Shown here: in pieces, positions 45-27,270 of the stretch | How positions within the stretch are numbered: position 1 is the stretch's first letter | Layout: every line of letters starts with the position of its first letter | From: Escherichia phage vB_EcoS-UDF157lw | Length of the DNA stretch: 46,604 nucleotides | Strand: one strand, 5' to 3' | Sequence record: OQ243221 | The notes under the pieces: generated by a model | The model's database searches: none | What the model was told of the DNA's origin: nothing | The model's input: only the letters and a program-made list of their open reading frames with translations | Program-made: the position numbers and the translations under genes

Positions 45-235
45 TTTATATACGCGTAGTCCGCTGTCTACCGATTGTCGACCGTATCCACATTTACAAT
101 TTATACGCCTTGATACAATCCATATACACTAAAATATCCTTATATATAAAGTACTTAGACTATTATTATTATTATATATAGTATTATGTATATATAGCGT
201 ATCATCTGTACGCTACTATATAGGTTGGTTTGCTT
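45..235. repeat. AT-rich non-coding block homologous to 27079-27270 (direct repeat, diverged)
   Basis: See partner; contains TATACGC-type repeats at 47-54, 101-108, 198-205 (inverted) and an ATTATTATTATTAT tract. Confidence 0.6.
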
Positions 236-8103: not shown

Positions 8104-8827
8104 GAGCCAGATTAATCGCAGCCTTTTGGTTGCGGTATCTGAACTTATTGAGCAAATGAAGTTATCTGCAAAGAGGCTAAAAATTGACACAGCGCAGGAG
8201 ATTGAAGAGGAAGATTCAGACCTTTCAGATGTAATCTCAGCGCTGCTATCTGGTTTTGTTTCCACTCTGCCTGCGCTGGCACTAGCAATATATCGTTATA
8301 ACTCGGCGCAATTCCTTAAGGTGGCCAACAACTCCGGAGGTAAGAATAATCCTGTAGTTCTTGCGCTAGGATTGTATGGTATTAACGCGGATGAACCATG
8401 GTGGCTCGACACCAGGAACTCCTGGATTGTTGGCACGCAGTTAAGTGCATCAAAGCTGCTAAACAACATCAAGGATGATTTCATAAACAACGCCATTACT
8501 GCGCAGGCTGGTAACACTGTTGACCTTGATGATAGATACCGAATCTACAGAAAGAGAACAGCAAATATCGCTGCTGGAATTACAGGGTCTCTAAACTCAA
8601 ACCTTATGCGGAGAAGGCTTGAAGATGCCGGTGTATCTCAGTATGTTTGGCGTGGTAGACTTGACGACAAAGAGCGACCATCTCACGTTTTGCGTGAGGG
8701 GGTTAGCTTTAAATCAGATGGTTCGGACGCTGGAAAACTTGACGGCCTTGCGATATTCCCCGGTCAGCAATACGGGTGTCGTTGCTGGGCTGTTCCTAAA
8801 TGGGAGAATTTAATTAATGAAGAGTAA
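8063..8827 (+). CDS. Minor head protein, Mu F / SPP1 gp7-like (254 aa)
   Basis: C-terminal region with GCRCW motif typical of Mu F-like head morphogenesis proteins; GGAGG RBS; overlaps portal 3-prime end. Confidence 0.7.
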   Translation: MNQKTRWMYPQIIESQINRSLLVAVSELIEQMKLSAKRLKIDTAQEIEEEDSDLSDVISALLSGFVSTLPALALAIYRYNSAQFLKVANNSGGKNNPVVLALGLYGINADEPWWLDTRNSWIVGTQLSASKLLNNIKDDFINNAITAQAGNTVDLDDRYRIYRKRTANIAAGITGSLNSNLMRRRLEDAGVSQYVWRGRLDDKERPSHVLREGVSFKSDGSDAGKLDGLAIFPGQQYGCRCWAVPKWENLINEE

Positions 8828-9938
8828 AATGCGTTATGATAGCGCCAAGGTAAAAGCCCGTTTCGATGAGAACGGTTTTCTCGTGGACACCCCAGTGGTT
8901 GCTCGCGTAGGTGTACAAACCTACTATATGCCAGATGGTTCAGAGCGCCGAGAGTTCCGTCCGGCTTCAGAGGTTTTTAAAGCCGATTCGCTGCAAAGTT
9001 ATCAGGGTAAGCCGCTAACTCTTGGCCACGTGGTTGTCAACTCTGAAAATGCTAAAGAGGTGGTTGTTGGTTCTGTGTCTGGCTCAGCTATGCGTCAGGA
9101 CTCCGCAGTGATTGTTCCTCTTACCGTTTACGACAAGGAAGCAATTGAGAAGGCCAAGTCTGGCGTTGCTGGTGAGCTCTCTGTTGGCTACAACACTGTT
9201 GACATTGAGTCTCCTGGTTGGGGTAGTAATGAAACGGGTGAGTACAAGCTTGATGGAGAGTACGCAAGCCAGGATGAGATTCCTGCTGATTGGGTACGCT
9301 TTGATGCGCTACAGACGAATATCGTTGTTAATCATATCGCACTCGTATATAAAGGTCGCGCAGGTATTGCTAAACTCAATCTGGACGCGGAACAGGAAAA
9401 CCCGTATACTGATACCGTTCAATCAAATAAAGAGGATAAATTGATGATTAAGATTAAACTCGATGGCGAACAGGAGTTCGAAATCGCCCCGGAAGTTGCT
9501 AAGCATATCGAAGCTGTTAAGGCTGATGCAGAGCAGGCTAAAGCTAAAGCTGACACTCTGGAAGCTGAGCGCGATGCGCTTAAAGCTAAAGTTGATGCAA
9601 TGCCAGCAGAGATCGAGAAAGCAGTTGCTAAAGCGAAAGCAGACGCAGACGCGCTCGCAACTCTGGTTGCTGTTGCTGCTGAAGCTGGTGTTAAAGCTGA
9701 TGGTCTGGATGCTAAAGGTATTAAAGTAGCTTACGTTAAAGAAGTTTCCGGCCTGGATGTTTCTGAGAAATCTGACGCGTATATTGACGCAGCGTTCGAC
9801 ATTGCTAAAGAATCTGATAAAATGGCTGAAGTTCGTAAGGCTACCGTAGCCTCCGATAAATCTGACAGCAAAGAAGAGTTGACGCTTATTGATCCGCGCG
9901 CTCGAATTGCTAAATCTAAATCCAAGAAGGAGAAATAA
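8817..9938 (+). CDS. Putative prohead protease / scaffolding protein (373 aa)
   Basis: N-terminal globular domain followed by a long Ala/Lys/Glu-rich predicted coiled coil (AEQAKAKADTLEAERDALKAKVDA...), typical of scaffolds; position before capsid genes. Confidence 0.6.
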   Translation: MKSKMRYDSAKVKARFDENGFLVDTPVVARVGVQTYYMPDGSERREFRPASEVFKADSLQSYQGKPLTLGHVVVNSENAKEVVVGSVSGSAMRQDSAVIVPLTVYDKEAIEKAKSGVAGELSVGYNTVDIESPGWGSNETGEYKLDGEYASQDEIPADWVRFDALQTNIVVNHIALVYKGRAGIAKLNLDAEQENPYTDTVQSNKEDKLMIKIKLDGEQEFEIAPEVAKHIEAVKADAEQAKAKADTLEAERDALKAKVDAMPAEIEKAVAKAKADADALATLVAVAAEAGVKADGLDAKGIKVAYVKEVSGLDVSEKSDAYIDAAFDIAKESDKMAEVRKATVASDKSDSKEELTLIDPRARIAKSKSKKEK

Positions 9939-9940
9939 TA

Positions 9941-10435
9941 ATGGCATTTCGTCAAGCAGCATTAGCGGGTATGGTATCTGATACCTCTCTTTACAATATC
10001 GATGGCGCGTGCGTTCTAGGCGGCACCGCTCAGGTGCAGGTTGGTCAGGCAGTTGGTGTTAGCGAAGTTGAAGTTACTGGAACTAGTTCATCTGGTGCAG
10101 GTCATAAAACTGTAGTTGGTTCTGGCATTACGACCGCTAACGTTTATGGCGTTGCTGTTCGCTCGCATTATGAAGCTGTTGATGGCTTCTATCGACCGCA
10201 AGAGGCAATTAACGTAATGACGGCTGGTAGAATCTGGATGAAAACCACACTGTCAGCAGCACCTGCATTCGGAACTGCAATCACTCTTGATGCGACTGGA
10301 ATTGTTGTTTCTAGCGGCGCTGTTGAGCCAGCTGGTTGGACTTTCGCAGGTGGCTTCATTGCTGGCACTGCGGTGCAGGGTCAGTCAGCACCTTATGATG
10401 GTGCACTGATTGAAGTTCAGGTTAAGCAGAAATAA
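9941..10435 (+). CDS. Putative capsid-associated (decoration-like) protein (164 aa)
   Basis: Gly/Ala/Val/Thr-rich beta-type composition; position between scaffold and capsid; followed by terminator. Function is positional inference. Confidence 0.4.
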   Translation: MAFRQAALAGMVSDTSLYNIDGACVLGGTAQVQVGQAVGVSEVEVTGTSSSGAGHKTVVGSGITTANVYGVAVRSHYEAVDGFYRPQEAINVMTAGRIWMKTTLSAAPAFGTAITLDATGIVVSSGAVEPAGWTFAGGFIAGTAVQGQSAPYDGALIEVQVKQK

Positions 10436-10529: not shown

Positions 10530-12074
10530 ATGGCTTTAGAGTTTATGGAAGTTGTAGCTAAGACTTATGGCGACCTGGAGAGGCTAGTAAAGGCAAAAAT
10601 GCTAGAAGGATGGATGCCATTTGATAGCTTAATTGACAATAGATTTACTATCGCAATTGTTATGGTTAAGGGTAGTGATGCGCAGCTTACCGACTTTAGG
10701 ATTCTCGGTGATAGCACTAGAGTTAAATTAATAAGCAAGGCTAACAAATTAATTGCTGATGACCCTGAGTGGGAGGTTTTCGGTCACCCTCAAATATTTG
10801 GCGCTGACGATTACATAGTTTCATTATCAAAAGGCTTTAAGGGAACTACTGGTAGGGATGGCATGGCTGGCCCGCAAGGACCGCAAGGACCGCGCGGCGA
10901 AGTTGGCCCAGAAGGTCCGCAGGGTCCAAGGGGTGACGATGGCGCTGATGGGGAAAAGGGTGAGCGTGGAGCAGTAGGCCCGCAAGGACCAATTGGCCCA
11001 CAGGGTATTCAGGGTCCACAGGGAGTTCAAGGGCCAGCTGGATTAAAGGGCGATAAAGGTGATAAGGGTGATGTTGGCCCACAGGGACCACAAGGATTAA
11101 AAGGTGATACTGGAGAGAAAGGCGACCCTGGAGAAGTTGGCCCTGCTGGTTTAACATTCCGTGGTCAGTGGGTTCCTGGCACTGGTTATACAAAAGACGA
11201 TACCGTAGTTTATAACGGATCAACTTACTTTGCGGTTAATGATATTGCAGCTGATGAGGAGCCAGGTGTATCACCTTTGTGGGTGGTTCTTGCCGCTCAA
11301 GGCACGAAAGGTGACAAGGGTGATAAAGGCGACCCTGGAGATATCGGACCTCAAGGGGAGAAGGGTGATACTGGACCTCAAGGTCCGAGAGGTATTCAGG
11401 GTCCGCAAGGTATTCAGGGGTTAACAGGTGAGCAAGGTCCGCAAGGTGAGCAGGGGCCGCAAGGGATTGTTGGGCCGACTGGACCGCAAGGGCCAAAAGG
11501 TGACACCGGACCTCAAGGTATTCAAGGGCCGCAAGGCATCAGGGGACTTACTGGGCCGATAGGACCACAGGGACCGCAGGGAGAGAAGGGCGAAAAGGGA
11601 GATAAAGGGGAAAAAGGCGAAACTGGTGCAACCGGACCACAGGGTCCAGCGGGTCAAAATAATACAAATAATCCAGTTTATACAACTCAACTTACCGTAT
11701 CTACAAGCTACTCAGCTATAGCCATACCAAATAACCCTGGTGTATCTTTTACAATCAGGAGGGTTGGTAATAACATTGAGTACTCTTTTACAGGCAACTC
11801 AATTCCAGGAAGGTATTTTGATGTTGAGGTTGTAAACTTTCCATCAGCTGACGTAGTTAAAAGATACCAGTCAAATCAGACAATTTCAGGTACAAATAGG
11901 TATGTTGTAGGTGATCCTGCTGGTTATACTGGCGGTGGATACAAAAGGATTCAATTCTCAGCTAGAGATTGGGGGGATAAAAACATTATAATGATTGATG
12001 TTTTTCACCTTCAGCGCCCAACTGATACTAGTTTTAGCATCGCAATTAGGATTGAGACATTCAAGCTGCCATAA
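10530..12074 (+). CDS. Collagen-like repeat protein with embedded carbohydrate-binding-like motif (514 aa); putative fibre/decoration
   Basis: Two blocks of uninterrupted Gly-X-Y triplets (about residues 110-205 and 265-385) separated by [26 protein letters not shown]...PLWVV, which resembles CBM5/12 chitin-binding-type motifs; distinct N- and C-terminal globular domains. Confidence 0.85.
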
Positions 12075-12089
12075 GATTAAAGGTCGCCA

Positions 12090-12117
12090 TTGCGCGGTCT
12101 TAAAACTCGTGTATAAT
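12090..12117 (+). promoter_or_regulatory. Candidate sigma70 promoter upstream of major capsid gene (TTGCGC, 16 nt, TATAAT)
   Basis: Perfect TATAAT at 12112-12117 with TG immediately upstream; TTGCGC at 12090-12095. Confidence 0.45.
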
Positions 12118-12153
12118 GTCAACGTACACTGTTAACCAAAAGGATAAATAGGA

Positions 12154-13098
12154 ATGACTATTAAGCTAGATGCTTTCGAGCAGAACAAAATCACCGAACA
12201 CCTGCGTAACATGGGTGTTGAAAAAGCTGATGCAGCTGGCATTTGGACCATCAAACAGCTGACTCAGACGCTTAACCGTAACTACGATCGCGAATATTCT
12301 GAAACATCTGTAGTTAACCTGTTCCCGGTCACTAACGAAATTGGCGCTTACGCTAAATACTTCGAATACGGCGAAATGGATGGTGTTGGCTTAGCTCAGA
12401 TTGTAGCTGATTATTCAGATGATTTGCCGCTGGTTGATGCACTGATGCAAGAGAAGCAAGGTAAGGTGTTCCGTTTTGGTAATGCATTCCTGGTTTCCAT
12501 CGATGAGATTGCGGCTGGCGCAGCTACTGGTCAATCACTGTCTTCTCGCAAGCAGGCTCTTGCATTCGAAGCTCATGACAACCTGCTTGATAAGCTGGTT
12601 TGGAAAGGCTCCGCACCTCACGGCATTAAGTCTGTATTCGATTACGACAACGTAAACCAGGTAGTTCCAAGCGGCGCATGGACTACAGCACAGACTGCTT
12701 ACGCTGACGTTAATAGCCTGCTGGATATTATCGAAACAGCAACCCAAGGCATCCATCGAGCTAACAGGCTGCTTCTTCCGGCATCCGCTCGTCGAGTAAT
12801 GCAAACTCTGGTCCCGAATACTGGTATTAGCTACTTTGAGTTCTTTGCCCGTAACAACAATGGCGTACAGGTGGAGTTCCTGCAACTCCTTGACAACTAC
12901 GATGGCGCAAACGGCAAGGCTGCAATTGCTTATGAGTACGACCCATTGAACATGAGCATTGAGATTCCAGAAGCTACTCACGTCCTTCCAGCTCAACCGA
13001 AGGATTTGCACTTCAAGTTTCCTGTAACCTCCAAGTCTACTGGCCTGATTATCTACCGACCTCTGACCGTTGCAGTAATGAAAGGTATCACCTTCTAA
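12154..13098 (+). CDS. Major capsid protein (314 aa)
   Basis: Size, position after scaffold, dedicated promoter and strong downstream terminator (high-expression signature). Confidence 0.7.
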   Translation: MTIKLDAFEQNKITEHLRNMGVEKADAAGIWTIKQLTQTLNRNYDREYSETSVVNLFPVTNEIGAYAKYFEYGEMDGVGLAQIVADYSDDLPLVDALMQEKQGKVFRFGNAFLVSIDEIAAGAATGQSLSSRKQALAFEAHDNLLDKLVWKGSAPHGIKSVFDYDNVNQVVPSGAWTTAQTAYADVNSLLDIIETATQGIHRANRLLLPASARRVMQTLVPNTGISYFEFFARNNNGVQVEFLQLLDNYDGANGKAAIAYEYDPLNMSIEIPEATHVLPAQPKDLHFKFPVTSKSTGLIIYRPLTVAVMKGITF

Positions 13099-13104
13099 TA
13101 AATA

Positions 13105-13126
13105 GCCCTCTTCGGAGGGCTTTTTT
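13105..13126 (+). terminator. Rho-independent terminator after major capsid gene
   Basis: GCCCTC-ttcg-GAGGGC hairpin followed by TTTTTT. Confidence 0.75.
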
Positions 13127-13188
13127 ACGTCTGTACTAAATGAATCATAAAGTATATAATTCATTTATAGACTAAACAGGAGGAAAGA

Positions 13189-13437
13189 ATGATTAAGTTA
13201 GAACACGTTGGTGCTTGCCTTATTCGATTTGCTGGAAATGATTACCTGCCAGGACAAATCATTGAAGTAGAAGAGTTGAATGACGGTTTTAAGCGATTGA
13301 TTGCTGAGGGTCGACTTGAGGTAATGGAAGACCGCAAGGCAACCAAGAAAGTAATTGAAGAAATTGAAAGCAAGAAGGTTAAAAAGAAAGAACCAAAGAC
13401 TGTAGACGAAGCTGAAAACGGCGGCGAGTACAAGTAA
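13189..13437 (+). CDS. Hypothetical protein (82 aa), Lys-rich C-terminus; isolated transcription unit
   Basis: RBS aggagga; flanked by terminators on both sides; upstream inverted repeat AAATGAAT...ATTCATTT spanning a TATAAT. Confidence 0.5.
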   Translation: MIKLEHVGACLIRFAGNDYLPGQIIEVEELNDGFKRLIAEGRLEVMEDRKATKKVIEEIESKKVKKKEPKTVDEAENGGEYK

Positions 13438-13444
13438 CCAACAC

Positions 13445-13468
13445 GGACGCTTTAGAGCGTCCTTTTTT
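13445..13468 (+). terminator. Rho-independent terminator
   Basis: GGACGCT-ttag-AGCGTCC hairpin followed by TTTTTT. Confidence 0.7.
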
Positions 13469-13483
13469 GTATGGAGATATAAA

Positions 13484-13885
13484 ATGAATGAAGAAGTAAT
13501 CGCATATATAAGGCAGCTGTACCCCCCACTTAACAACCAGCCGGATGATGTTCTTAACGCATGGATTGAGGTGGCGAAGCTTTTTATCTGCTTAGGCAAG
13601 TTTGGTGACAAGCAGGTTCAGGCACTGGCATTCTACACTCTTCACTTGCTTAGCCAGGATATTGCACTCAAGACTGAGAATGATTCAAGCCAGACATCAT
13701 CTGAGCGGGTTAAGTCCTACTCACTTTCAGGCGAGTACACGATTAGCTACGATACAAGCACTGCCGCAGCTAGCTCATCAAACCTTGAGGAATCCTCATG
13801 GGGTAAGCTTTACATTGATTTGATGCGTCGCAAGGTTGGCCGCTGGGGCTTGATTACCTCTGGTGGGTCGAGGTGCTGCCGATGA
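13484..13885 (+). CDS. Putative head-tail connector / head completion protein (133 aa)
   Basis: Position between capsid and tail genes; overlaps next gene. Positional inference. Confidence 0.45.
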   Translation: MNEEVIAYIRQLYPPLNNQPDDVLNAWIEVAKLFICLGKFGDKQVQALAFYTLHLLSQDIALKTENDSSQTSSERVKSYSLSGEYTISYDTSTAAASSSNLEESSWGKLYIDLMRRKVGRWGLITSGGSRCCR

Positions 13886-14250
13886 ATCATGCACTTTTGC
13901 AGCAGCAAATTAAGGCTGGTATTAATCTCCTGTCAGATGGTGATGGAGTTTTCGAAGCTACGACACAGCCAGCCATCTCTATCGTTAATGGCTATGAAGT
14001 GCGCACACCAGGCACTTCCTACACTGTGCGGGGTGTTATTCGTGAATTCAAAGCAAGAGACATTGACGGTGACATCATCAAGTTCGGTGACCGTCGCGGA
14101 ATTTTTACTGCTGATTCAGTTGTATCGGAAGGCGACCGCATCTACATTGACCAGGAAGCCTACACAGTCATTGACCCTAGACCAGTGAAGCCGACCGGAA
14201 CGGTAATCGCCTACAGGCCAGTACTGCGGAGGGCTGCAACATATGGCTAA
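13873..14250 (+). CDS. Putative head-tail joining protein (125 aa)
   Basis: Overlapping ORFs in a connector gene cluster; positional. Confidence 0.45.
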   Translation: MLPMNHALLQQQIKAGINLLSDGDGVFEATTQPAISIVNGYEVRTPGTSYTVRGVIREFKARDIDGDIIKFGDRRGIFTADSVVSEGDRIYIDQEAYTVIDPRPVKPTGTVIAYRPVLRRAATYG

Positions 14251-14671
14251 TGATAACCTGCTATTCAAGCTAAAGATTAATGATTGGGCCGATTCAGTAA
14301 TGGAGGCGATTCCTGAGATTATTGATGATGCCCTTGATAACGCAGCTAGGGATATCGTTAAGTTGTCTCCTGTTGATACTGGAAGGTTTAGAGGTAACTG
14401 GCAAGCTACAGGAAACAGGCCATCACTGATTGGTTTGAACAACTATGACAAGGATGGGGCTGATACAATTAAGTCACTAAGAAGGCAAATCCACGCTCTA
14501 GCTAGAGATAAGGCTACGCATACAATCTATATCACCAATGCGCTAACGTATGCGGTACCATTGGAGTTCGGTTATTCTGGTCAGGCACCAAACGGGGTAC
14601 TTGGTATCGTCACTAAGAGGCTTGGTTTTTACTTTAATGACGCTATAAGGAAAAAGTCCAATGCACTATGA
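14243..14671 (+). CDS. Putative tail completion / neck protein (142 aa)
   Basis: Positional; overlapping starts and stops typical of neck genes. Confidence 0.45.
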   Translation: MANDNLLFKLKINDWADSVMEAIPEIIDDALDNAARDIVKLSPVDTGRFRGNWQATGNRPSLIGLNNYDKDGADTIKSLRRQIHALARDKATHTIYITNALTYAVPLEFGYSGQAPNGVLGIVTKRLGFYFNDAIRKKSNAL

Positions 14672-15059
14672 AATGATGGTTTCAGCAAGAAAGCTGGTTA
14701 GCGATGCGGCAGTTGATATTGCCGGCGGAGTTCCAGTGGCTTATGAGAACTGCGGATTCACCCCACCCAAAAACGGAAGTTTATGGTTGAAGTTTGATTA
14801 CACGGAGGTTGATAGTGTGACATGGGGATTGCAGCGAACATGCAGGTATTACGTAGGCATGGTTCAGGTCTCTATATTCTTTTCACCAGGTGAGGGGACT
14901 GATAGACCTCGCCAATTGGCTGGGCGATTGTCAGAAGCTTTCGCCGATGGTACAATGCTTGACAGCGGATACATTTATGAAGGCGGATCCGTATTTCCTC
15001 CAGTGAAATCGCAATCCGGCTGGTTCATTCCTGTCCGATTCTACGTACGTATGGATTAA
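14661..15059 (+). CDS. Putative tail terminator protein (132 aa)
   Basis: Positional, immediately upstream of major tail protein. Confidence 0.4.
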   Translation: MHYEMMVSARKLVSDAAVDIAGGVPVAYENCGFTPPKNGSLWLKFDYTEVDSVTWGLQRTCRYYVGMVQVSIFFSPGEGTDRPRQLAGRLSEAFADGTMLDSGYIYEGGSVFPPVKSQSGWFIPVRFYVRMD

Positions 15060-15073
15060 TTAAGGAGATTTAC

Positions 15074-15724
15074 ATGGCCCATCTCAGCAATGGCACACAA
15101 ATTTTTTTGCAAGGCTCTAAATCTGAATCGGTAGCCGTAACGGCTATCACTAACGCAGCTCAGCCAGTTATGACGGTAGCTGACGCTTCAATTTTCGCAG
15201 CTGGTGACTTCATTGTTGTTGAGTCATCTTCATGGTCTAAACTTTCAGAGAAACAGTTGCGAGTAGTTACATCAACGGCTACAACAATTACCGTTGAAGG
15301 CATTGACACTACTGACCCGCTTCAGTTCCCAGCTGGCGGAACGGCATCGATCTACAAGGTTCTTACCTGGTATGAAATGCCTTGTGTTCAAGACGTTTCA
15401 ACTGATGGCGGAGAGCAGCAGTTCGTTACTTATCAGTGCCTGGCTGATGACCGTGAGCAGCAGATTCCAACCTATAAGTCAGCGGTAAACACGACCTATA
15501 CGTTTGCTCACGAGTTCACCAACCCGATCTACCCGGTACTCCGTAACTACGACGAGTCTGGAGCGCTGATTGCGATTCGTGCATACGTTCCTAAAGCTGG
15601 CGAAGTTCGACTTTGGACTGGCACTATCGCGTTTAACGAAACTCCAAACGTTTCCGTTAACGAGATCGAAACTGTATCCGTAGCAATTACGGTGCGTGGA
15701 CGCTATAGCTTCCTGGCTGCATAA
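15074..15724 (+). CDS. Major tail protein (216 aa)
   Basis: Position upstream of chaperones and tape measure; followed by strong terminator. Confidence 0.55.
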   Translation: MAHLSNGTQIFLQGSKSESVAVTAITNAAQPVMTVADASIFAAGDFIVVESSSWSKLSEKQLRVVTSTATTITVEGIDTTDPLQFPAGGTASIYKVLTWYEMPCVQDVSTDGGEQQFVTYQCLADDREQQIPTYKSAVNTTYTFAHEFTNPIYPVLRNYDESGALIAIRAYVPKAGEVRLWTGTIAFNETPNVSVNEIETVSVAITVRGRYSFLAA

Positions 15725-15730
15725 CAATCA

Positions 15731-15754
15731 AGCCCCTTCACAGGGGCTTTTTTT
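15731..15754 (+). terminator. Rho-independent terminator after major tail gene
   Basis: AGCCCCT-tcac-AGGGGCT hairpin followed by TTTTTTT; TTATAAT -10-like element directly after. Confidence 0.7.
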
Positions 15755-15797
15755 ATGTTATAATTTCAACTCAAACAAACATGAGAGGATTATTTAA

Positions 15798-27078: not shown

Positions 27079-27270
27079 TTGATATACGCGTAACCGATGT
27101 AACTCGATGTATACAATCTCATACGCGGAAAATTGTATACGCTTTTTACGCGAAGATACGCATTAGTTACACTATAGAATCCTTATATAATAAGGGTTTA
27201 GAGTAATTATTATTATTACTATATTTGTTTGTATATAGTGTAACTACTCTCTATGGTTATGTTGGTGTGT
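27079..27270. repeat. AT-rich non-coding block homologous to 45-235, with GATACGC-type iterons and a (TTA)n tract
   Basis: Shared blocks such as atatacgcgta, atccttatata, ttattattattat, gtatatag, ggtt..gtttg with window positions 45-235, same orientation. Confidence 0.6.

What the first reader, a model, noticed from the sequence alone, without database searches (positions are those of the whole stretch)
13130..13468. Single small gene isolated by terminators inside the head gene block, with a palindrome spanning a TATAAT
The 82-aa Lys-rich protein at 13189-13437 is bracketed by strong terminators and preceded by the inverted repeat AAATGAAT-cataaagtaTATAATtc-ATTCATTT, which would occlude the -10 if bound. 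This could be an independently regulated decoration or DNA-binding protein, or a second moron.
Basis: seen in the sequence. Interest (0 to 1): 0.35.

Follow-up and report, generated by a model that had tools for sequence, protein, structure and literature searches.

The report
Conserved T1-family small head-module gene
The small gene is the ordinary, already annotated counterpart of phage T1 gene 46, a core gene of all T1-like phages that lies between two leaky transcription stops; it is probably a helper for head assembly or DNA packaging, not an add-on or a coat decoration.

Summary
The window is a complete T1-like (Drexlerviridae, Rogunavirus-type) coliphage genome, about 97% identical to AHP24, AHP42, AHS24 and AKS96 around the finding.

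- **Gene and terminators.** The ORF at 13189-13437 and both flanking terminators are real. They are already annotated in those records and in T1 itself (gp46).
- **Family and position.** The protein belongs to Pfam DUF7444. In every Drexlerviridae lineage sampled, and in the myophage DIBBI, its gene lies between the major capsid gene and the head-tail adaptor gene. It is therefore not a moron.
- **Not seen in virions.** The protein is acidic (pI 5.5). It is absent from the solved T1 and T1-like virion structures and from published virion proteomes, so a stoichiometric decoration role is unlikely.
- **Terminators are attenuators.** The downstream terminator abuts the adaptor gene's ribosome-binding site. 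In T1-type relatives the upstream terminator abuts the small gene's own ribosome-binding site.
- **Promoter-like signal.** The TATAAT box is invariant, and its 17-nt spacing from CTGTAC is fixed wherever CTGTAC is present, in Rogunavirinae and Braunvirinae. This suggests a re-initiation promoter in this lineage.
- **Palindrome.** It is real and longer than described (13-nt arms, 12/13 complementary, local P about 0.002). It occurs only in the AHP24/BECP10 clade and nowhere else in the genome.
- **Best functional guess (about 40%).** A lambda gpFI/YqbF-like prohead-binding chaperone. The basis is weak fold matches, gene position and absence from virions.

The parts
12154..13098 (+). Major capsid protein gene (context; upstream neighbour)
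   Evidence: phrog_264 at 2e-91. Closest PDB sequence is 9n01_C, 'Major capsid protein', E 9e-154.
13104..13127 (+). Intrinsic terminator after the capsid gene (stem 13104-13121, UUCG loop, T6); acts as an attenuator
   Evidence: dG -12.9. Annotated in KF771237. A GC hairpin plus T-run is found at this place in 35 of 39 distinct upstream contexts, with different stem sequences.
13131..13137 (+). Conserved CTGTAC / -35-like TGTACT (3 of 6 to TTGACA), 17 nt upstream of TATAAT
   Evidence: Invariant in alignment A6. TGTAC-N16-19-TATAAT occurs once in the window, 0.14 expected. The consensus scan did not list it, because the -35 is too weak.
13155..13160 (+). TATAAT, the -10 box of a probable re-initiation promoter
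   Evidence: Invariant at 28-30 nt from the ATG in 10 distinct Rogunavirinae/Braunvirinae contexts, while the surrounding bases vary.
13129..13172 (.). Clade-specific imperfect palindrome/hairpin. Inner arms are 13137-13149 and 13155-13167 (12/13 complementary, 5-nt loop); outer stem is 13129-13135 with 13166-13172
   Evidence: Present only in the AHP24/AHP42/AHS24/AKS96/BECP10 group. The half-site is not enriched elsewhere in the genome.
13178..13183 (+). Shine-Dalgarno sequence AGGAGG, 5 nt before the ATG
   Evidence: Read from the sequence. It is the best match to consensus among the late genes listed.
13189..13437 (+). DUF7444 gene, ortholog of T1 gp46 (82 aa, 9.3 kDa, pI 5.5)
   Evidence: Pfam PF24231 at 1.5e-23, 83 bits against a cut-off of 27. 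phrog_2716 at 1.3e-33. 100% identical to the AKS96 protein. 32% identical to T1 gp46.
13189..13332 (+). N-terminal folded domain (residues 1-48; four strands, one helix, one strand)
   Evidence: AF2 model with pLDDT about 90 or above across residues 1-50. It is the only part conserved in the Klebsiella phage proteins. It is the whole of DIBBI gp11 (hhalign 96%).
13396..13434 (+). C-terminal tail with the conserved motif K(T/S)xxE(L/A)E(N/D)GGEY(K)
   Evidence: Alignments A1 and A2; E76 is nearly invariant. Low model confidence suggests it is flexible.
13445..13468 (+). Intrinsic terminator after the small gene (stem 13445-13462, T6); must be read through
   Evidence: dG -11.8. Annotated in KF771237. 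Conserved in T1, KOX1, PHB17, EC3a and Rogue1 with different stems.
13484..13885 (+). Head-tail adaptor gene (DUF4054). Its ribosome-binding site (GGAG 13473-13476) starts 5 nt after the terminator's T-run
   Evidence: Pfam DUF4054 at 3e-18. PDB adaptor chains 9l01_B and 9jlf_b at 1e-25. Sequence read.

Best explanation
**What it is (about 90% confident).** The gene is the ortholog of phage T1 gene 46. It is a core late gene of T1-like phages (Pfam DUF7444) with a fixed place between the major capsid gene and the head-tail adaptor gene.

**How it is transcribed (inferred from layout).**
- The two flanking hairpin-plus-T-run terminators are attenuators inside one long late transcription unit, not insulators.
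- They lower transcript levels stepwise after the very abundant capsid protein.
- The neck and tail-tube genes behind them have no promoter of their own, so both terminators must be read through.

**Lineage-specific promoter (about 60%).** In this lineage (Rogunavirinae/Braunvirinae, with an analogous site in Webervirus) a roughly 45-nt spacer follows the first terminator. It carries a host sigma-70-type promoter with a perfect -10 and a weak -35. This promoter probably restarts transcription and raises expression of the small gene.

**What the protein does (about 40%).** The protein is not part of the finished virion. Most likely it works like lambda gpFI and B. subtilis YqbF.
- The 48-residue N-terminal beta-rich domain binds the capsid protein on proheads.
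- The flexible charged tail, with its conserved ELE-GGEY end, recruits or positions a partner such as the terminase-DNA complex or the portal.
- The result would be help with head assembly or DNA packaging.

**The palindrome.** The palindrome over the -10 box is a clade-specific addition of unknown use. If it does anything, it more likely forms an RNA hairpin in read-through transcripts than serves as a repressor site.
For: **Identity and conservation**
- Pfam and PHROG matches.
- 229 phage records hold a relative.
- Synteny holds in seven genera or subfamilies, including T1 and the myophage DIBBI.
- The exhaustive HMMER search finds only 23 representative clusters, all small proteins.

**Attenuator layout**
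- The adaptor's ribosome-binding site starts 5 nt after the second T-run.
- In 23 distinct upstream contexts of T1-type and related lineages, the first terminator ends 22-28 nt before the ATG, with no -10 box between.
- The same kind of terminator follows the cement, tail-tube and chaperone genes.

**Promoter**
- Alignment A6 shows invariant CTGTAC and TATAAT, fixed 17-nt spacing and a variable spacer.
- The same TATAAT is kept even where another gene is inserted upstream (L019, L020, Rogue1).
- The terminator plus CTGTAC block is 92-94% identical to Rtp-type phages, whose capsid genes are about 73% identical.

**Not in virions**
- T1 cryo-EM models cover gp33, 34, 36, 37, 38, 41, 42, 44, 45, 47, 48, 49 and 52, but not gp46 (PMC11945409).
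- No PDB chain matches the family profile, while capsid, cement, adaptor and portal chains of T1-like phages do match their window counterparts.
- Virion mass spectrometry of Sfin-1, the AHP phages and Rogue1 does not list it.

**gpFI/YqbF likeness**
- YqbF is the top Foldseek hit of 350,542 PDB chains.
- BFVD hits include a 'LEM-like' small phage protein.
- lambda FI also lies directly after the capsid gene E.
- gpFI is a packaging chaperone (a non-virion protein, from my own knowledge) that bridges the capsid and the terminase-DNA complex (PMC13595911).
- gpFI-like genes directly after the capsid gene are reported for TP901-1 (PMC4493119).
- The gene stays with the head module when the tail is contractile (DIBBI).
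Against: **The gpFI/YqbF link is weak.**
- Foldseek gives E 1.1 and probability 0.30 for YqbF.
- hhalign of the family against a shallow gpFI alignment gives 1.6% probability, covering only a 14-column LPG..F.V stretch.
- No member hits Pfam Packaging_FI (PF14000) or any YqbF family at E up to 10.
- The domain order is reversed relative to gpFI.
- T1-like phages package by headful from pac sites, and no gpFI-type factor is known for such phages (my own knowledge).

**Absence from virions is indirect.**
- A flexible, low-copy or substoichiometric protein can escape cryo-EM.
- A 9-kDa protein can run off 12% gels.

**No transcript data exist.**
- No transcript mapping was found for any T1-like phage.
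- The -35 matches only 3 of 6, and the consensus scan did not call the site.
- The authors of the AHP records annotated no promoter here.
Confidence: 0.45

Rival explanations
1. The protein is a real but hard-to-see virion component. It could be a flexible or low-occupancy capsid decoration, a portal-vertex or neck accessory, or an internal protein. In that case it would be made in set amounts by the terminator-bracketed arrangement.
For: - It lies in the structural gene block between the capsid and adaptor genes.
- It has a strong ribosome-binding site.
- The charged, low-confidence C-terminal tail could be invisible in averaged maps.
- Gel-band proteomics of the AHP phages and Rogue1 sampled only a few bands.
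Against: - T1 head and connector maps at 3.5-3.6 A were fully assigned to other proteins, and gp46 is never mentioned.
- A second T1-like virion (9kmg, 9kmh, 9jlf) also has no such chain.
- Shotgun LC-MS/MS of Sfin-1 virions detected 22 proteins, including non-structural contaminants, but the visible parts of its table show no CDS81, the JK_24P homolog.
- The cement role is already filled by 9941-10435.
Confidence: 0.2
2. The palindrome is an operator. A dimeric phage or host protein would bind it and cover the -10 box, so that the small gene is regulated on its own schedule.
For: - The inverted repeat is unlikely by chance in this spacer (P about 0.002).
- It encloses the whole TATAAT box.
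- TATAAT itself is conserved as a probable promoter element.
- Rtp has a different short inverted repeat, TTGAGT/ACTCAA, around the same TATAAT.
Against: - The repeat is found only in the AHP24/BECP10 clade. e4/1c, SU57, EC3a, KOX1, Rogue1 and Sd1 show no comparable structure (z from -1.7 to +1.0).
- The half-site occurs in the genome no more often than chance, 5 against 4.4 expected.
- No candidate regulator was identified.
- T1-type relatives have no spacer at all.
Confidence: 0.1
3. The protein is a small nucleic-acid-binding or regulatory factor, or an anti-defence factor, and is unrelated to particle assembly. On this view it merely happens to reside in the late operon.
For: - The C-terminal half is Lys-rich with net charge +3.
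- Weak fold matches include the ribosomal L9 N-domain and WYL/PafBC-type regulators.
Against: - The protein is acidic overall, and the family pI is mostly 4.7-6.7.
- Its position between the capsid and adaptor genes is strictly conserved, also in a myophage that shares only the head module.
- No Pfam or PADLOC-type annotation points that way. PADLOC itself was not searched.
Confidence: 0.1
4. The gene is a moron: an accessory cargo gene with its own promoter and terminator, inserted between structural genes.
For: - It is bracketed by terminators and has a promoter-like site.
- Its GC content is 0.406, against 0.44 for the genome and 0.47-0.48 for its neighbours.
- The spacer is a known insertion site for HNH genes in Rogue1 and Sd1.
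Against: - It is present at the same locus in every Drexlerviridae lineage sampled and in DIBBI, with sequence divergence that tracks the phages.
- In T1-type phages it has no promoter and must be co-transcribed.
Confidence: 0.02

Closest known systems
Phage T1 gp46 (ST46) and its orthologs rtp28, JK_24 and AHP42_11; Pfam DUF7444 (PF24231), PHROG 2716
   Same: - Same family by HMM.
- Same size class.
- Same gene position (capsid gene, terminator, this gene, terminator, adaptor gene).
- Same C-terminal GGEY motif.
- The AKS96 protein is 100% identical.
   Different: - T1 and Tempevirinae lack the roughly 45-nt promoter-like spacer.
- Klebsiella phages carry an N-terminal extension and lack the GGEY end.
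- No function has been assigned to any member.
Lambda gpFI, the DNA-packaging chaperone (Pfam Packaging_FI, PDB 2LSM)
   Same: - Its gene follows the major capsid gene directly.
- It is small, acidic and two-part, with a folded domain of about 50 residues joined to a charged flexible part.
- It is not a virion protein.
- The two share an LPG..F.V stretch.
   Different: - No significant sequence or profile similarity.
- The folded domain is C-terminal in gpFI and N-terminal here.
- Lambda packages from cos sites, while T1-like phages package by headful.
- Biochemical activity was not tested here.
B. subtilis skin-prophage protein YqbF (PDB 2HJQ)
   Same: - It has an N-terminal small beta-rich domain followed by a helical tail.
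- It is encoded next to the prophage capsid gene (my own knowledge).
   Different: - The YqbF tail is a HeH/Rho_N-type domain, which was not detected here.
Terminator-punctuated late operons of T1-like phages
   Same: Intrinsic terminators follow the cement, capsid, gp46-like, tail-tube and chaperone genes in T1 and in AHP42, and they are annotated there. The AHP-group genomes carry 18-21 predicted terminators each (PMC4070988).
   Different: Nothing differs structurally. Termination efficiency has not been measured for any of these phages.

Membership tests
DUF7444 / T1 gp46 orthologs | Pfam PF24231 match above the gathering score | tested here: met
   83 bits against a cut-off of 27, E 1.5e-23, covering residues 2-81. 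All 30 aligned relatives match.
DUF7444 / T1 gp46 orthologs | Gene lies between the major capsid gene and the DUF4054 adaptor gene | tested here: met
   Seen in the window, AHP42, Rogue1, EC3a, KOX1, PHB17, T1, SU57, e4/1c, Rtp, Sd1 and DIBBI.
Lambda gpFI (Packaging_FI) | Sequence or profile similarity to PF14000 | tested here: not met
   No hit at E up to 10 for any of 30 members. hhalign probability is 1.6%.
Lambda gpFI (Packaging_FI) | Fold of the head-binding domain (2LSM) | tested here: inconclusive
   [not shown]
Lambda gpFI (Packaging_FI) | Encoded directly after the capsid gene; not in the mature virion | tested here: met
   Position. Absence from virions is indirect, through homologs.
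Lambda gpFI (Packaging_FI) | Binds the capsid protein on proheads and stimulates terminase-dependent packaging | not testable with these tools
   This needs genetics and biochemistry.
YqbF-like prophage proteins | Structural similarity to 2HJQ | tested here: inconclusive
   [not shown]
Capsid decoration / cement proteins | Present at fixed stoichiometry on the mature capsid | tested here: not met
   The T1 capsid was assigned to gp47, gp48 and gp49 only. PDB cement chains match the neighbouring gene 9941-10435, not this one.
Moron | Sporadic presence among otherwise syntenic relatives | tested here: not met
   Present in all lineages sampled.
Moron | Own promoter and terminator | tested here: inconclusive
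   A terminator is present. A promoter-like site exists in this lineage but is absent in T1-type relatives.
Intrinsic (rho-independent) terminator | GC-rich hairpin followed by a T-run, kept in relatives through changed stems | tested here: met
   Stem sequences differ between T1, PHB17, KOX1, Rogue1 and the window, yet each pairs.
Intrinsic (rho-independent) terminator | Measured termination or read-through | not testable with these tools
   No transcript data for T1-like phages were found.
Sigma-70 promoter | -10 and -35 hexamers at 16-18 nt | tested here: inconclusive
   -10 matches 6/6, spacing is 17, -35 TGTACT matches 3/6. The scan did not list it. The conservation pattern fits a promoter.
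Palindromic operator | Conserved in relatives and/or repeated at other promoters of the genome | tested here: not met
   Clade-restricted. The half-site is not enriched.

The most novel reading that the evidence does not exclude
DUF7444 may be the T1-family counterpart of lambda gpFI and B. subtilis YqbF: an abundant, non-virion protein that binds proheads. Its small N-terminal domain would hold the capsid protein, and its conserved ELE-GGEY tail would bring in the terminase-DNA complex. That would extend gpFI-type packaging chaperones to headful-packaging phages and to the T1-like head module shared with some myophages.
Probability: 0.35. Interest if true: 0.4.

Novelty: already known. Interest (0 to 1): 0.15.

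Why it matters
**For annotation.** The window's genome belongs to a well-sequenced phage group, and the gene and both terminators are already in GenBank, so little changes.

**What the comparison adds**
- It clarifies that the terminators in the late region of T1-like phages are attenuators in a single operon.
- It shows that one sub-lineage has gained a conserved restart promoter after the capsid-gene terminator.

**The function.** The only open point of some interest is the role of gp46/DUF7444. It is a core protein of a whole phage family and still has no assigned function. A gpFI-like role is a cheap, testable hypothesis now that T1 virion structures show the protein is not part of the particle.

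Tried and rejected
**Homology searches**
- The word-indexed homology search with the single protein gave only 5 close hits.
- With the family alignment it gave 32 hits, all DUF7444 only, so no bridge to an annotated family appeared.
- The exhaustive HMMER search found 23 representative clusters and nothing outside the family.
- NCBIfam gave no hit.
- A weak Pfam DUF7210 signal appeared in 10 of 30 members (best E 0.002). It is itself an uncharacterised domain and added nothing.

**Testing the gpFI link**
- hhalign against a gpFI alignment was not significant.
- The gpFI alignment was shallow (86-99% identity), and the AF2 model of gpFI failed for its C-domain. The planned reciprocal fold search could not be made.
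- The afdb50 library was unavailable.
- The Popovic et al. 2012 paper on gpFI (PMC3442539) is not held. My statement that YqbF is a structural relative of gpFI rests on memory.

**Other checks**
- Rfam found nothing in 12900-13700 except sub-threshold matches to the terminator hairpin.
Lineage-specific single queries worked instead.
- I considered that the collagen-like neighbour might have a cement-like N-terminus, as T1 gp48 does. BLASTP shows no similarity.
- Literature searches for DUF7444, gp46 synonyms and T1-like transcriptomes found nothing relevant.

Full report
**What the window is**

The 46.6-kb window is a complete genome of a T1-like siphophage (Drexlerviridae, Rogunavirus type). 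The stretch 12086-14300 is 96.8-96.9% identical to Escherichia phages AHP24, AHP42, AHS24, AKS96 and BECP10.

PHROG and Pfam scans give the usual T1 head-neck-tail order:

| Coordinates | Gene product |
|---|---|
| 8817-9938 | protease-scaffold |
| 9941-10435 | cement protein (Pfam Phage_cement) |
| 10530-12074 | collagen-repeat protein |
| 12154-13098 | major capsid protein |
| 13189-13437 | the gene of the finding |
| 13484-13885 | DUF4054 adaptor |
| 13873-14250 | stopper |
| 14243-14671 | Neck1-type protein |
| 14661-15059 | tail terminator |
| 15074-15724 | tail tube protein |

**Checking the observation**

The ORF, its length and both terminators are as described.
- Each terminator has a 7-bp stem with five G-C pairs, a 4-nt loop and a T6 run. 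Their energies are -12.9 and -11.8 kcal/mol.
- TATAAT is at 13155-13160.

The actual repeat is stronger than claimed.
- The arms are 13137-13149 and 13155-13167, 12 of 13 complementary, with 5 nt between them, so TATAAT lies wholly in the right arm.
- An outer stem extends the hairpin to 13129-13172.
- In shuffles of the 67-nt spacer, a perfect 8-bp repeat arises 3.6% of the time and the 12/13 form 0.18%.

The protein has 12 Lys but 18 acidic residues, giving net charge -2 and pI 5.5.

**The gene is known and is a core gene**

- KF771237 (AHP42) annotates the same CDS (AHP42_11) and both terminators. The AKS96 protein is 100% identical.
- The protein matches Pfam DUF7444 (83 bits, cut-off 27) and PHROG 2716, both of unknown function.
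- tblastn finds it in 229 phage records, mainly Escherichia and Klebsiella phages.
- In every record I opened, the gene lies between the capsid and adaptor genes. These were Rogue1, EC3a, KOX1, PHB17, T1 (ST46 = gp46, with both terminators annotated), SU57, e4/1c, Rtp (rtp28, 'similar to gp46 of phage T1') and Sd1.
- The Xanthomonas myophage DIBBI shares only the head module. It has a 51-residue homolog of the N-terminal domain (hhalign 96%, E 3e-9) at the same place, after a capsid-gene terminator.
- An exhaustive HMMER search of 1.8 billion representatives finds just 23 clusters, all proteins of 76-114 residues.

The family alignment shows three parts:
- a conserved domain of about 50 residues;
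- a Lys/Glu-rich linker;
- a C-terminal K(S/T)xxELE(D/N)GGEY motif.

This distribution rules out a moron.

**How the locus is transcribed (inferred from layout)**

- After the second terminator's T-run (13463-13468), the adaptor gene's GGAG (13473-13476) and ATG (13484) follow at once. The next strong promoter-like site on this strand comes only after the tail-tube gene, at 15737-15764. The neck and tail-tube genes therefore depend on read-through.
- I collected 39 distinct upstream contexts from IMG/VR and GenBank relatives.
  - In the 23 contexts from T1-type and related lineages, the capsid-gene terminator ends 22-28 nt before the small gene's ATG. Only the ribosome-binding site lies between, so the small gene itself can be expressed only by read-through.
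  - The terminators keep their place while their stems differ in sequence, which argues that they function.
- They are thus attenuators that step down expression after very abundant products. The same design follows the cement, tail-tube and chaperone genes.

**The TATAAT box is probably a real promoter element in this lineage**

- Five lineages were aligned: the window, e4/1c, SU57, Rtp and EC3a. The terminator, CTGTAC, TATAAT and the Shine-Dalgarno core are invariant. The 17-nt spacer between CTGTAC and TATAAT and the stretch after TATAAT vary freely.
- The same holds in ten distinct contexts. These include two where a different sequence precedes TATAAT, and Rogue1, where an HNH gene is inserted upstream.
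- Klebsiella phages have TTGCGA-17-TTAAAT at the same position.
- The block from the terminator to CTGTAC is 92-94% identical to Rtp-type phages, whose capsid genes are only about 73% identical.
- Against this, the -35 matches only 3 of 6. The consensus scan did not list the site, and no transcript mapping of any T1-like phage was found.

**The palindrome**

- It is present only in the AHP24/AHP42/AHS24/AKS96/BECP10 clade. Other relatives align only up to position 13145.
- Folding the equivalent spacers gives a comparable hairpin only in Rtp, with a different sequence. Rtp's close relatives SU57 and EC3a do not have it.
- The half-site occurs in the genome at chance frequency.
- If the promoter is used, transcription would start at about 13167, so the hairpin would exist only in read-through RNA.
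- I regard it as a clade-specific feature of unknown use. An operator is possible but unsupported.

**The protein is not seen in virions**

- The T1 cryo-EM study built gp33, 34, 36, 37, 38, 41, 42, 44, 45, 47, 48, 49 and 52 and never mentions gp46 (PMC11945409).
- The PDB holds capsid, cement, adaptor and portal chains of T1 (9kzj, 9l01) and of a second T1-like phage (9kmg, 9kmh, 9jlf). These match the window's proteins strongly. Neither the protein nor the family profile matches any chain.
- The visible parts of the Sfin-1 virion LC-MS/MS table show no CDS81, the homolog. The AHP-group band analysis identifies seven other proteins, and Rogue1 three.
- This evidence is indirect, but it is consistent.

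**What the protein may do**

- The AF2 model has mean pLDDT 82.6, and about 90 or above for residues 1-50. It shows four short strands, a helix and a fifth strand, then a charged helix and a low-confidence tail.
- Foldseek ranks YqbF first of 350,542 chains, but at E 1.1.
- BFVD returns family members and then many small uncharacterised phage proteins, one of them named 'LEM-like'.
- Lambda FI lies directly after capsid gene E. gpFI bridges the capsid and the terminase-DNA complex (PMC13595911); that it is absent from the virion is from my own knowledge. gpFI-like genes after the capsid gene are reported in TP901-1 (PMC4493119).
- The gpFI C-domain sequence shares an LPG..F.V..G.L pattern with the DUF7444 domain, but hhalign gives only 1.6% probability. 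No member hits Packaging_FI.

I therefore rate 'works like gpFI/YqbF' at about 40% and do not file the protein as a member of that family.

**Verdict**

- This is an ordinary, already annotated core gene of T1-like phages in an attenuator-punctuated late operon.
The gene is not a moron, not a demonstrable decoration protein and not a basic DNA-binding protein.
- The points worth carrying forward are the lineage-specific restart promoter and the testable idea of a gpFI-like role for DUF7444.

Noticed in passing
window 10530-12074 (+): A 514-aa collagen-repeat protein (Pfam Collagen 3e-36, weak CBM_5_12) that PHROGs labels 'tail fiber'. It lies between the cement and capsid genes, where T1 has gp48 (cement protein II). 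Its Rogue1 homolog gp21 is a prominent virion band. AHP42 has two small ORFs there instead. BLASTP shows no similarity to the cement protein or to T1 gp48. It may be a capsid fibre rather than a tail fibre.
   Followed up: partly
L003 987-1472 (Rogue1); L012 267-857 (Sd1); L019 and L020 upstream of 1501: The spacer between the capsid-gene terminator and the DUF7444 gene is an insertion hot spot. Rogue1 and Sd1 carry an HNH homing-endonuclease gene exactly there. In Rogue1 its stop codon overlaps the conserved TATAAT. Two IMG/VR relatives have other sequence there.
   Followed up: partly
L013 9823-10208 (Xanthomonas phage DIBBI): Two tandem small genes lie between the capsid and adaptor genes. 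gp11 (51 aa) is the DUF7444 N-domain alone. gp10 (76 aa) looks by eye like a diverged paralog with a charged tail.
   Followed up: partly
window 12112-12117, 13155-13160, 15759-15764 (+): Perfect TATAAT boxes precede the capsid gene and follow the terminators after the capsid and tail-tube genes. This suggests a repeated terminator-then-promoter design in the late region. The site at 15737-15764 (TTCACA-16-TATAAT with TG) overlaps the terminator loop and is annotated in AHP42.
   Followed up: no
window 13095-13145 versus 12089-13098: The non-coding block from the terminator to CTGTAC is 92-94% identical to Rtp/ACG-M12-type phages. The adjacent capsid gene is only about 73% identical. The block is either under strong constraint or was recently exchanged.
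   Followed up: no
window 140-215 and 27186-27230: Very AT-rich stretches with short TAA/TAT runs surround TATAAT boxes near the window start (- strand) and at about 27.2 kb. I saw them only in a list of TATAAT sites.
   Followed up: no
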